This document shows, piece by piece, positions 16,501-19,500 of a DNA stretch of 43,429 bases (positions are counted from its first letter, which is position 1; each line of letters opens with the position of its first letter). The stretch comes from a virus (lineage: Duplodnaviria; Heunggongvirae; Uroviricota; Caudoviricetes). The position numbers were made by a program. The stretch lies in IMG/VR virus record IMGVR_UViG_2522572023_000001. One strand, 5' to 3'.

Positions 16501-19500
16501 GTGTATGGCCATATAGGCTTTATAAAAACATCCTGACTGATTATATACCTGATGATATTGATCGTTCAGAACTCTCATAAGATGGAGAACAGTTTCTGCA
16601 CTCTCATTCTCTTTTGGTATAATTTCATGAATGATGCTGTCCAGTTGATATTTTTGCTTGCATGTTAGGATTTTTGTAATTCTTTCATCGATTTCAATGC
16701 ATATTGAATTATTTTTATCGGATAATAACAAATCATTTTCCTGTGTATTTGTTTGTATCTCTTGTGGGATATTAATTACCACATCCGTACATGTTCTATC
16801 CACCTCATTTGTCTTTATGTTGTCAAGAAAATCATTTAACGTCAGTTGAGAACCCAATTCATTAATGTAGTCCAATGATGACGTAGAAGAGCTATTATCA
16901 AGAAAATCGTTCAGAGTGAGCTCGGAGTCGTTTCTTGTTATCGGATATACATTTGTGGAAGCGGCTAATTTAATACTCCGGTTGCTGGAGGTAGAAGCTG
17001 TTGGTTCAGAGGTTGACGAACACTGCATGTCAATGCATACATAACCTTTATTTGAAGTTGAATTTGGAATCAAGTTTCCTCCTGAATTAATGGTTTTCCA
17101 TAATACTAACTATTGATAAAAATATTTTGCATTTCATTAAAATAAAAAACCCCATGGAAAATATTTTTTGTTAGTTATTACATACAGCACATCAGGTCGT
17201 CAATATAGTCTAACTATAGTTATCACTAAAAACTTGCCTCGATTTTAGATTTTTCCAGTATTTGTAGATATTGCACTGAACACCGAATACGTAGCAGAGG
17301 GTGTCTACACGATAACGTGCTATGAGCTACCATGTTGTCGAAAAATTGTTTAGTGAGTATGACATCAGGAATGTGGTGGTCTGTTTTAATATTTCTATTT
17401 CTATTTCTATTTCTATTTCTATTTGTTGTGATTTTTTCTTTAGTTCATGTATTTCGATTTGTTTCTGAATTATCGGGGGTAGTGTCTTCCCTTTTCCCTG
17501 AGGCTTATCATGCAGTTATTTTCGCCATCTTGGTATTGTGGAAATACCGACATCCATAGCTTTGGTGAGCTCTGTTCAGGTGGCCAAATTCAGAAAACCA
17601 TTACGGAGGAAGAAGGCGATGGCTAAACCAGCGCGAAGACGATGTAACCGTAAAAGAGAAGATTTAACTGTTAAAAGGATATTTGAGTTACTAAGTTTCG
17701 ATAAATCTACCGGGGTATTTAGATGGAAAGTTCCCACTCAGGGAAGGATAGCATTAAATAGTGTTGCTGGAGCTTTTGATTCCAACGGTTATTCAATGAT
17801 CATGATAGATGGGCGTAGATATAAAACTCACGTCTTAGTTTTTTACATAACTCATAATCGTTGGCCTGCTGGTCAAATTGACCACGTTAATGGAATTAGG
17901 ACCGACAATAGGCCAGAAAATTTAAGAGAATGCCTGCCAATAGAAAATTCAAGAAATATAAGGATCCGAAAGAATAGCAAATCAGGTTGCAGAGGGGTTA
18001 CTTGGCACAAACGACAGAAAAAATGGAATGTTAGGCTAGGATTCCATGGCAAGAGTAAACACTTCGGATGCTTTGATGATCTGGAGTTAGCGGTACTAGT
18101 TGCTGAAGAAGCCCGAGATAAGTATTACGGTGATTTTTCCGGCAACGAAAGGAGCACTTATGCGAATCTATCGAAGGAAATGTAAATGTTGCAATGAATG
18201 GTTTATACCAAAATATCAAAATCAATATTGGTGTAATGAGATTTGTGGAACCAAGATAGCACTCGAACGACGAAGTAAAGAACGCGAAAAAGCGGAAAAG
18301 GCAGAAAAGGCAGCAGAGAAGAAACGACGACGAGAGGAGCAGAAACAGAAAGATAAACTTAAGATTCAAAAACTCGCCTTAAAGCCCCGCAGTTACTGGA
18401 TTAAACAAGCCCAACAAGCCGTAAACGCCTTCATCAGAGAAAGAGACCGCGACTTACCATGTATCTCGTGCGGAACGCTCACGTCTGCTCAGTGGGATGC
18501 CGGACATTACCGGACAACTGCTGCGGCACCTCAACTCCGATTTGATGAACGCAATATTCACAAGCAATGCGTGGTGTGCAACCAGCACAAAAGCGGAAAT
18601 CTCGTTCCGTATCGTGTCGAACTGATTAGCCGCATCGGGCAGGAAGCAGTAGACGAAATCGAATCAAACCATAACCGCCATCGCTGGACTGTCGAAGAGT
18701 GCAAGGCGATCAAGGCAGAGTACCAACAGAAACTCAAAGACCTGCGAAACAGCAGAAGTGAGGCTGCATGAATATCTACGAAAGAATTGATGGCAGCAAA
18801 TACCGAAATATTTGGGTAGCTGGCGACCTGCACGGATGCTACACGAACCTGATGAACAAACTGGATACGATTGGATTCGACACCAAAAAAGACCTGCTCA
18901 TCTCGGTTGGCGATTTGGTTGATCGCGGTACAGAGAACGTCGAATGTCTGGAATTAATCACATTCCCCTGGTTCAGAGCTGTGCGTGGAAACCATGAGCA
19001 AATGATGATTGATGGCTTATCAGAGCGTGGAAACGTTAATCACTGGCTGCTTAATGGCGGTGGCTGGTTCTTTAATCTCGATTACGACAAAGAGACTCTG
19101 GCTAAAGTTCTTGCCCATAAAGCAGAAGAACTTCCGTTAATCATCGAACTGGTGAGCAAAGATAAAAAATATGTCATTTGCCACGCCGATTATCCTTGTG
19201 ATAAATACGAGTTTGGAAAGCCAGTTGATCATCAGCAGGTAATCTGGAACCGCGAACGAATCAGCAACTCACAAGACGGGATCGTGAAAGAAATCAAAGG
19301 CGCGGACACGTTCATCTTTGGTCATACGCCAGCAGTGAAACCACTCAAATTTGCCAACCAGATGTATATCGATACTGGCGCAGTGTTCTGCGGAAACCTC
19401 ACATTGATTCAGGTACAGGGAGAAGGCGCATGAGACTCGAAAGCGTAGCTAAATTTCATTCGCCAAAAAGCCCGATGATGAGCGACTCACTACTGGCCAT

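What the first reader, a model, noticed from the sequence alone, without database searches (positions are those of the whole stretch)
17538..18185. HNH-AP2 endonuclease gene carrying a NinG-like N-terminus, overlapping ninG
The HNH ORF begins MAKPARRRC, which I recall as the N-terminus of lambda NinG, while the downstream ninG here starts at a different Met ([15 protein letters not shown]) and overlaps the HNH gene's 3' end. This looks like a homing-endonuclease-type insertion into the 5' end of ninG that captured ninG's original start. The NinG N-terminus is from memory and needs checking.
Basis: partly seen in the sequence, partly recalled or inferred. Interest (0 to 1): 0.45.

Follow-up and report, generated by a model that had tools for sequence, protein, structure and literature searches.

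The report
Endonuclease cassette inserted into phage ninG
A small selfish-type endonuclease gene sits 29 bases inside the recombination gene ninG of a lambda-like prophage, is translated from ninG's original start signal, and brings a replacement front end that keeps ninG whole; the layout is neat and widespread but is a variation on a known theme.

Summary
Lambda NinG begins [10 protein letters not shown]. Window 17606-17647 is 40/42 identical to lambda's ninF-end/ninG-start.

**What is inserted.** After ...CGATGTAA (17647), a 596-bp AT-rich cassette (17648-18243, 38% GC) replaces 64 nt of lambda-type ninG. It encodes the body of an HNH_3 + AP2-fold endonuclease, fused in frame to ninG's ribosome-binding site, ATG and first nine codons. 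There is no other in-frame start before residue 60. Its 3' end carries a new ribosome-binding site, ATG and 28 diverged codons that rebuild a full-length NinG (18160-18771, Cys4 motif kept).

**Distribution.**
- The junction is identical in 80 loci examined.
- The cassette is in 538 of 5426 complete E. coli genomes.
- 926 genomes carry an uninterrupted lambda-type junction.
- The cassette is 4-20 times less diverse than its flanks, and flank haplotypes are shared with empty alleles.

This fits one insertion followed by horizontal spread. Active homing is inferred, not shown.

**This window.** It is an O145:H28 prophage. The cassette arrived together with a 2.8-kb moron as one recombined block.

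**Verdict.** New variant of a known kind (free-standing homing endonuclease gene); moderate interest.

The parts
17606..17618 (+). Remnant of the lambda-type ninF 3' end, carrying ninG's ribosome-binding site (GGAGGAAGAAGGCG). It now serves the endonuclease ORF.
   Evidence: Lambda identity starts at 17606. In ninF-intact loci the same sequence is the end of ninF.
17619..17647 (+). The retained original ninG 5' end: ATG plus 8 codons plus 2 nt (MAKPARRRC). It is now the start of the endonuclease ORF.
   Evidence: 29/29 identical to lambda ninG. Unique in the window, 0 expected by chance. Present in all 80 cassette-bearing loci, 78 of them identical.
17648..18243 (+). The 596-bp AT-rich cassette (38% GC). 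It replaces 64 nt of lambda-type ninG (lambda 42461-42524).
   Evidence: Boundaries from alignment with lambda, C325 and others. 100% identical in Stx1 phages SH2026Stx1 and AU6Stx1. Present in 538 of 5426 complete E. coli genomes. GC profile.
17619..18185 (+). HNH_3 + AP2-fold endonuclease ORF of 188 aa. It has a ninG-derived head (residues 1-9/10) and a read-through tail (about residues 175-188).
   Evidence: Pfam and PHROG phrog_99 at 6.6e-71. Invariant D88, H89, N101, N110. AlphaFold model pLDDT 82, with residues 2-12 and 181-188 disordered. Fold hits to I-HmuI 1u3e and to the AP2 domains 1gcc and 7et4.
18145..18159 (+). New ribosome-binding site for ninG (AAAGGAG, 6 nt before ATG 18160), inside the endonuclease's 3' end.
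   Evidence: Read from the sequence. An IS629-like element in strain PK8241 landed exactly here with a 3-bp GAG duplication.
18160..18243 (+). Replacement ninG 5' end: 28 codons, 29% [30 protein letters not shown]. This allele type is seen only together with the endonuclease.
   Evidence: About 64% nt identity to the lambda, SE16, H-19B and Emek ninG 5' types. Not found without the endonuclease in the phage collection, the 5.8-billion-protein set or the metagenome scan.
18160..18771 (+). Chimeric but full-length ninG (203 aa).
   Evidence: Pfam NinG 1e-83 covering profile positions 5-192 of 193. N-terminal Cys residues retained.
18244..18771 (+). Lambda-type remainder of ninG.
   Evidence: 97% identical to lambda and 99.3% to C325. 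Its haplotypes are shared between cassette-bearing and empty loci.
14843..17605 (.). Linked AT-rich moron that replaces the middle of ninF. It carries a 590-aa ORF of unknown function (15301-17073, minus strand). In this window it was co-imported with the cassette.
   Evidence: Lambda and C325 identity stops at 14842 and resumes at 17606. PHROG phrog_9230, function unknown, no Pfam hit. No allele with this segment's right end (17401-17647) joined to an uninterrupted ninG 5' end was found.

Best explanation
A free-standing homing-endonuclease-type gene (HNH_3 catalytic domain plus AP2-fold DNA-binding domain, AT-rich, nearest relatives in lytic phages) became inserted 29 nt into a lambda-type ninG.

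**Shown by the sequence.**
- The endonuclease body is fused in frame to ninG's own ribosome-binding site, ATG and first nine codons. It is therefore made from ninG's translation start, inside the N-antiterminated nin operon, and has no promoter or start of its own.
- The cassette's 3' end carries a new ribosome-binding site, ATG and 28 diverged codons. These replace the 21 codons deleted from ninG, so a complete NinG/Rap with its N-terminal Cys4 motif is still made, translationally overlapped with the endonuclease by 26 nt.

**Shown by comparison.**
- The event happened once, because the junctions are identical everywhere.
- The cassette then spread into many ninF and ninG backgrounds and several prophage types of E. 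coli, including Stx1 phages, Sakai Sp17 and O111, ETEC and avian strains.
- In this window it came in together with a neighbouring 2.8-kb moron, by recombination in ninE/ninF and in ninG.

**Inferred.**
- During lytic growth the enzyme cuts uninterrupted ninG alleles of co-replicating lambdoid phages.
- Repair by Red or RecA copies the cassette, and sometimes its neighbours, into the cut genome.
- The carrier is immune because the target stretch is split and replaced by the diverged 5' end.
For: **Junctions and replaced segment.**

**Direction of the event.**
- Lambda NinG is [10 protein letters not shown].
- 926 genomes have the uninterrupted junction, against 538 with the cassette.
- Endonuclease homologues lack both the ninG head and the C-terminal tail, and one sits in a T7-like phage beside the exonuclease and endonuclease I genes.
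- In the AlphaFold model the head and tail are disordered.
- No alternative in-frame start exists before residue 60.

**Family.**
- Pfam HNH_3 is above cutoff and PHROG phrog_99 scores 6.6e-71.
- Catalytic D-H...N...N residues are invariant.
- Fold matches are I-HmuI and AP2 domains.
- His-Me group 2 (HNH_3, I-HmuI, with AP2 modules) is described as homing endonucleases in PMC5714182.

**ninG remains intact.** Pfam NinG is full length at 1e-83.

**Single origin and spread.**
- 78 of 80 loci have an identical 29-nt left junction; the other two differ by one SNP.
- The cassette carries 0-6 mismatches per 596 nt.
- Diversity (pi) is 0.004-0.005 in the cassette, 0.016-0.05 in the adjacent ninG and 0.11 in ninF.
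- Flank haplotypes are shared between cassette-bearing and empty loci, starting 14-33 nt from the junction.
- At least four upstream contexts were found.

**Same prophage with and without it.** C325 compared with this window.

**No self-splicing RNA and no own promoter.**
Against: - No cleavage or inheritance data exist.
- The diversity step at the cassette borders is also expected if an old insertion simply sits in a region where flanks are constantly exchanged with empty alleles by ordinary lambdoid recombination.
- Many O157:H7 genomes carry cassette-bearing and uninterrupted lambda-type ninG alleles side by side (L004/L016 versus L032). Conversion is therefore not efficient in lysogens, although this is expected if the gene is expressed only after induction.
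- The donor genome of the cassette and of the AT-rich ninG 5' end was not found.
- Pfam AP2 is below its curated cutoff.
Confidence: 0.6

Rival explanations
1. Fossil insertion. The cassette entered ninG once by illegitimate recombination. It has since been carried passively, by ordinary mosaic recombination among lambdoid prophages and by clonal expansion of EHEC lineages. The endonuclease is inactive, or not specific for ninG.
For: - Most of the 538 genomes are O157:H7, O111, O145 and related clones.
- In this window the cassette moved as part of a 3.8-kb block with crossovers far from it.
- Cassette-bearing and empty alleles co-reside in the same genomes.
- Cassette variation is too low to test purifying selection.
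Against: - All family-invariant catalytic residues and the full two-domain fold are intact.
- No frameshifted copy was seen among the 80 loci, apart from IS hits.
- The cassette occurs in diverse non-EHEC backgrounds with different ninF types.
- The diversity drop is sharp, beginning within tens of bases of both borders.
Confidence: 0.3
2. The endonuclease is a domesticated phage function rather than a selfish element. Candidates are a weapon against competing phages or satellites, or a helper of recombination or packaging. Its position at ninG would then only reflect where it happened to land.
For: - HNH proteins have such roles in other phages; this is general knowledge and was not tested here.
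- The gene sits next to the recombination genes ninB and ninG and is co-translated with them.
Against: - It is not next to terminase or cos.
- The HNH_3 + AP2 architecture is that of homing endonucleases (PMC5714182).
- Presence/absence polymorphism at one exact site is the signature of a homing endonuclease gene.
- About 1.7 times as many genomes carry a lambda-type ninF-ninG region without it, so it is dispensable.
Confidence: 0.07
3. The reverse history. The endonuclease originally stood free between an upstream gene and the AT-rich ninG' in an unknown phage. A later illegitimate crossover with a lambda-type phage placed the ninF/ninG-start in front of it. This would be capture of a ninG 5' end by the endonuclease, not insertion of the endonuclease into lambda-type ninG.
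For: - The replacement ninG 5' end and the endonuclease share low GC and are never seen apart.
- The endonuclease stop (TAA inside ninG' TGT-AAA) lies at the position homologous to the left junction (TGTAA) and to the ninF stop of phage Emek, which also overlaps ninG by 26 nt.
Against: - No genome with a full AT-rich ninG' or with the presumed ancestral arrangement was found in any collection.
- The end product, and its relation to the empty alleles, is the same either way.
Confidence: 0.25

Closest known systems
Free-standing HNH homing endonucleases of T4-type phages (mobA-mobE) and 'intronless homing'. The closest cases are mobE inserted in nrdA of Aeromonas phage Aeh1 and mobA in T4 gene 39/60 (PMC2988022, PMC2790892, PMC3045599).
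   Same: - An HNH endonuclease gene with no intron or intein, lying in or beside a conserved phage gene.
- Presence/absence polymorphism between related phages.
- Flanking markers carried along.
- Insertion inside a coding region that leaves the host function in place.
   Different: - Here the host gene is not split into two polypeptides that must reassemble. Only its first 9 codons are detached (and fused to the endonuclease), and the cassette supplies a complete substitute 5' end.
- The endonuclease has no start signals of its own and uses the host gene's.
- The host is a temperate lambdoid phage or prophage.
- Activity is untested.
I-HmuI / HNH_3 group of His-Me finger endonucleases with AP2 DNA-binding modules ('HNH-AP2', group 2 of PMC5714182; Magnani et al. 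2004 and Wessler 2005 as cited there).
   Same: - HNH_3 domain above the Pfam cutoff.
- Invariant catalytic residues.
- Fold match to I-HmuI.
- C-terminal three-strand-plus-helix AP2 fold.
   Different: - I-HmuI is intron-encoded and uses NUMOD/HTH modules.
- The AP2 sequence signal here is below Pfam's threshold and is supported mainly by the predicted fold.
- Nearest sequence relatives are at most 47% identical.
ShiLan-type 'hidden' HNH insertions in actinophage methylase genes (PMC11855218).
   Same: - An HNH endonuclease inserted inside a phage protein-coding gene with no intron or intein machinery.
- Overlapping reading frames at the borders.
- The open question of how the endonuclease is translated.
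   Different: - ShiLan stays in frame as a loop within the host protein, and its HNH is read in another frame from an internal GTG.
- Here the endonuclease takes the host's frame and start, and the host gene restarts downstream from a cassette-borne start.
Lambda NinG/Rap (PF05766), the interrupted host gene.
   Same: The downstream ORF is a full-length NinG, 97% identical at DNA level to lambda from codon 32 onward.
   Different: Its first 28 codons are a distinct AT-rich allele found only with the cassette.

Membership tests
HNH_3 / I-HmuI-type His-Me finger endonucleases | HNH_3 profile match above the curated threshold | tested here: met
   PF13392 scores 42.7 bits against a cutoff of 24.8, over residues 68-107. 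PHROG phrog_99 'HNH endonuclease' scores 6.6e-71.
HNH_3 / I-HmuI-type His-Me finger endonucleases | Conserved catalytic D-H ... N ... N residues | tested here: met
   D88, H89, N101 and N110 are invariant in the alignment with 13 homologues.
HNH_3 / I-HmuI-type His-Me finger endonucleases | Beta-beta-alpha-metal fold | tested here: met
   AlphaFold model with pLDDT 82. The best PDB match is I-HmuI 1u3e: probability 1.00, E = 8e-3, 99 aligned columns. This is a predicted model and a modest E-value.
HNH-AP2 endonucleases | AP2 DNA-binding domain C-terminal to the HNH domain | tested here: inconclusive
   Pfam AP2 scores 22.1 bits, below its 33.3 cutoff. The model shows three strands plus a helix at residues 127-173. 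It superposes on AtERF1 1gcc (rmsd 1.3 A over 51 columns, probability 1.0) and on TEM1 7et4/7et5.
Homing endonuclease gene (functional definition) | Presence/absence polymorphism at one fixed site between otherwise homologous genomes | tested here: met
   The junction is identical in 80 loci. 926 genomes have the uninterrupted junction. Prophage C325 is 99.3-99.9% identical in the flanks but empty.
Homing endonuclease gene (functional definition) | Site-specific cleavage of the allele that lacks the gene | not testable with these tools
   Needs purified or expressed protein tested on ninF-ninG DNA.
Homing endonuclease gene (functional definition) | Unidirectional gene conversion or over-representation in crosses, with co-conversion of flanks | tested here: inconclusive
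   Only population signatures are available. Cassette pi is 0.004-0.005 against 0.016-0.11 in the flanks. Flank haplotypes are shared with empty alleles from 14-33 nt outward. This is also compatible with ordinary recombination.
Homing endonuclease gene (functional definition) | The carrier allele lacks an intact target | tested here: inconclusive
   64 nt around the insertion point are replaced by a version about 64% identical, but the real target is unknown.
NinG/Rap (downstream gene) | Full-length NinG profile match with the N-terminal Cys motif | tested here: met
   PF05766 scores 1e-83 over profile positions 5-192 of 193. C8, C11, C25 and C29 are retained.
Group I/II intron or intein (self-splicing carriers of endonucleases) | Ribozyme structure, or an in-frame intein with splicing blocks | tested here: not met
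   No Rfam family matches at E <= 1 in 17000-18900. The endonuclease ORF ends in a stop and ninG restarts in another frame. No Pfam intein domains were found.

The most novel reading that the evidence does not exclude
The cassette is an active gene drive of lambdoid and Stx prophages. It cuts uninterrupted ninG during lytic growth and copies itself in, protected by its own diverged substitute ninG 5' end. Because homology to its left is often available only beyond the adjacent AT-rich moron, it drags that 590-aa gene, and other nin-region markers, from phage to phage. It would thereby shape the mosaic of Stx-phage early regions.
Probability: 0.3. Interest if true: 0.6.

Novelty: new variant of a known kind. 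Interest (0 to 1): 0.38.

Why it matters
Homing endonuclease genes are well studied in lytic T4-like phages and much less so in temperate lambdoid phages, which carry Shiga toxin and other virulence genes.

This cassette shows a tidy way for such a gene to live inside a coding gene without intron or intein. It takes the host gene's translation start and pays for it with a replacement front end.

If the enzyme is active, three things follow.
- It would be a recombination hot spot in the nin region of Stx1 phages and other EHEC prophages.
- It could explain linked transfer of the neighbouring moron.
- It offers an easily testable system: lambda itself carries the presumed empty target.

If the enzyme is inactive, the cassette is simply a clean, datable marker of exchange between prophages.

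Tried and rejected
- **Default MAFFT alignment of window against lambda.** It misplaced the 42-nt island. BLAST and direct string comparison gave the true junctions.
- **Search for the donor or a stand-alone copy of the AT-rich ninG 5' end.** Only cassette-bearing E. coli-type loci or ordinary GC-normal ninG alleles turned up.
- **Search for an 'empty' allele that keeps the AT-rich upstream segment.** None was found.
- **Literature.** Four full-text searches found no paper describing this ninG insertion. The first was swamped by the surname 'Ning'.
- **NCBIfam.** It gave no hit for any of the three proteins.
- **Sequence search of PDB.** It gave only a marginal AP2 hit.
- **Intron or intein carrier.** Considered and rejected.
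- **Terminase-associated HNH role.** Considered and rejected on position and architecture.
- **dN/dS on the endonuclease.** Not attempted, because there are only 0-6 differences per 596 nt.
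Full report
**1. What is at the coordinates**

The + strand has an open frame at 17538-18185. The first plausible initiation site is ATG 17619, nine bases after GGAGG. RefSeq uses it too. The GTG/TTG codons further upstream have no ribosome-binding site, and the next in-frame ATG is at 17796, residue 60, inside the fold.

The 188-aa product begins [15 protein letters not shown]. It matches:
- Pfam HNH_3 at 42.7 bits (cutoff 24.8);
- AP2 weakly, at 22.1 bits (cutoff 33.3);
- PHROG phrog_99 'HNH endonuclease' at 6.6e-71.

A second ORF runs 18160-18771 (203 aa) and starts [15 protein letters not shown]. It is a full-length NinG (Pfam 1e-83, profile positions 5-192 of 193). 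It overlaps the first ORF by 26 nt.

**2. The remembered lambda N-terminus is correct**

Lambda NinG translates as [21 protein letters not shown].... Window 17606-17647 equals lambda 42419-42460 at 40 of 42 positions, and the 29 nt from the ATG are identical. The 29-mer is unique in the window and is not expected by chance.

**3. Exact anatomy**

Lambda-type sequence ends at ...CGATGTAA (17647) and resumes at TGTGGAACCAAG (18244). Between them, 596 bp (38% GC, against about 50% in the neighbouring nin genes) replace 64 nt of lambda ninG. The cassette has two parts.

- **The endonuclease body.** Thirteen homologues, none more than 47% identical, start near LTVKRIFELLSFD and end about three to five residues after the G-x-F motif. 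The protein here therefore has a borrowed head (ninG codons 1-9) and a borrowed tail of about 11 residues. In an AlphaFold model (pLDDT 82), residues 2-12 and 181-188 are the only long low-confidence segments. The rest folds as an HNH domain whose best PDB match is I-HmuI, plus a three-strand-and-helix domain. That second domain superposes on plant AP2 domains (1gcc: rmsd 1.3 A over 51 columns). The family-invariant D88, H89, N101 and N110 are present.
- **A new ninG front end.** It comprises AAAGGAG, ATG 18160 and 28 codons at 29% GC. They encode [28 protein letters not shown] and then join lambda-type [10 protein letters not shown]. The four cysteines of the NinG N-terminal motif are kept. 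This segment is about 64% identical at DNA level to each of four known ninG 5' types. That is as distant as those types can be from each other (60-87%).

The endonuclease stop codon is the TAA inside ninG' TGT-AAA. This is the position homologous to the left junction TGTAA. It is also where ninF of Salmonella phage Emek stops, after overlapping ninG by the same 26 nt.

No Rfam family (so no group I or II intron) and no promoter-like site lies in the cassette.

**4. Direction of the event**

Three results show the ninG piece is ancestral and the endonuclease is the newcomer.
- Loci with a complete ninF directly upstream (PK8241, UTME-3, O111 11128, ETEC1730 and others) have the same junction, CGATGTAA|CCGTAAAAGAG.
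- 926 of 5426 complete E. coli genomes have an uninterrupted lambda-type ninF-ninG junction.
- The nearest endonuclease relatives lack the ninG head, and one lies in a T7-like phage beside the exonuclease and endonuclease I genes.

**5. Distribution and population pattern**

- The cassette is 100% identical in Stx1 phages SH2026Stx1 and AU6Stx1.
- It occurs in 538 of 5426 complete E. coli genomes, up to three copies each.
- It includes Sakai Sp17 (ECs_3504/3503) and Stx1 prophages.
- 57 IMG/VR contigs carry it at 98% identity or more.
- No GTDB species-representative genome has it.

Among 80 loci, the 29-nt left junction is identical in 78 and differs by one SNP in 2. The cassette differs by 0-6 bases. 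In the locus set classified, upstream contexts were the 590-aa-ORF moron (38), intact ninF of at least two types (33), an IS30-truncated form as in Sp17 (11) and other (2). Downstream, ninG is followed by ninH or directly by ninI.

Nucleotide diversity is 0.004-0.005 in the cassette. It is 0.016-0.05 in the next 300 nt of ninG and 0.11 in ninF. Flank polymorphisms are shared between cassette-bearing and empty loci and begin 14-33 nt from the right junction.

The cassette therefore has one origin and a younger common ancestor than its surroundings. Either it has moved into many backgrounds, or its flanks are continually exchanged with empty alleles.

**6. This window in particular**

The window is 100% identical to a prophage of E. 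coli O145:H28 RM12761/RM13516. Strain C325 has the same prophage, 99.9% identical upstream and 99.3% downstream, but with an ordinary ninF-ninG. It lacks both the cassette and the 2,763-bp AT-rich moron (14843-17605) that replaces the middle of ninF.

Differences from C325 to the right of the cassette stop at 18615. The moron-plus-cassette block is 98-99% identical to that of Stx1 phages. So here the cassette arrived as part of a block of about 3.8 kb, with crossovers in ninE/ninF and in ninG.

No allele was found that joins the AT-rich segment immediately upstream of the cassette (window 17401-17647) to an uninterrupted ninG 5' end.

**7. Mechanism**

*Shown.*
- The endonuclease depends on ninG's translation signals.
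- ninG is rebuilt by cassette-borne signals and codons.
- Both lie in the nin operon without their own promoter.

*Inferred.* The enzyme is a homing endonuclease that cuts uninterrupted ninG in co-replicating lambdoid genomes. Repair copies the cassette and variable lengths of flank. The carrier is protected because the region around the insertion point is split and replaced.

This matches 'intronless homing' and the gene-splitting insertions of mobE and mobA in T4-type phages (PMC2988022; PMC2790892 and PMC3045599). It also matches the view that nuclease genes mark boundaries of exchange between phages (PMC10448857).

I give the insertion and start-capture anatomy about 0.95. I give active homing about 0.4-0.5. 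The combined statement is scored 0.6.

**8. Rivals**

- A fossil insertion spread passively (0.3).
- A domesticated function unrelated to ninG (0.07).
- The reverse history, in which a free-standing endonuclease upstream of an AT-rich ninG' captured a lambda-type ninF/ninG start (0.25). This rival concerns the origin only and is compatible with homing.

Cassette-bearing and empty alleles co-reside in O157:H7 genomes. This argues against conversion in lysogens. It is expected for a gene expressed only after induction.

**9. Novelty**

Both genes are routinely annotated as 'HNH endonuclease' and 'recombination protein NinG'. Four full-text searches found no description of the chimeric arrangement. 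That is not proof of absence.

It belongs to a known kind, the free-standing HNH homing endonuclease gene inserted in a phage gene. The uncommon solution is in-frame capture of the host gene's start plus supply of a substitute 5' coding end. The setting, temperate Stx-type phages, is one where such elements are little studied. I rate it a new variant of a known kind, interest 0.38.

Noticed in passing
window 14843-17605 (ORF 15301-17073, minus strand): A 2.8-kb AT-rich moron (26-40% GC) replaces the middle of ninF. It carries a 590-aa ORF of unknown function: no Pfam or NCBIfam hit, only PHROG phrog_9230 'unknown'. It is also present in Stx1 phages. No allele was found with the moron's right-end segment (17401-17647) joined to an uninterrupted ninG 5' end, and a whole-moron search was not run. 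Prophage C325, otherwise the same, lacks it.
   Followed up: partly
window 17385-17425: A run of TTTCTA hexanucleotide repeats lies in the AT-rich segment upstream of the endonuclease. Ungapped identity between otherwise near-identical loci breaks here (at about 17395), which suggests copy-number variation.
   Followed up: no
window 18295-18313: A 9-nt indel (GGCAGAAAA, an extra AEK in the acidic/lysine repeat of NinG) segregates independently of the cassette. It is present in some cassette-bearing and some empty loci.
   Followed up: partly
L135 (E. coli 14EC007, NZ_CP024131 1751259-1754593), locus 1168-1916: ninF is itself split by a second, degraded 'HNH endonuclease signature motif' pseudogene, immediately upstream of the cassette. 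Other nin regions carry further HNH/NUMOD4 genes: L025 upstream of ninB and L030 upstream of the Dam methylase gene. The nin region looks like a repeated landing site for endonuclease genes.
   Followed up: no
L003 (E. coli PK8241) 3510-4819: An IS3-family element with IS629-like ends (TGAACCGCCCCGG) has inserted, with a 3-bp GAG duplication, exactly between the new ninG ribosome-binding site and its ATG. This uncouples ninG from the endonuclease. One IMG/VR locus has a similar IS end just inside ninG.
   Followed up: partly
window 18768-20604: ninH is absent: ninG is followed directly by the NinI phosphatase gene, as in phage 434. Where lambda has Q, a minus-strand lipid A deacylase LpxR gene (19645-20604) sits instead. 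A different Q follows further downstream (L034 annotation).
   Followed up: no
L016 (Sakai Sp17) 4134-4951: In Sp17-type loci a partial IS30 abuts the AT-rich segment upstream of the endonuclease. It apparently truncated the 590-aa-ORF moron.
   Followed up: no
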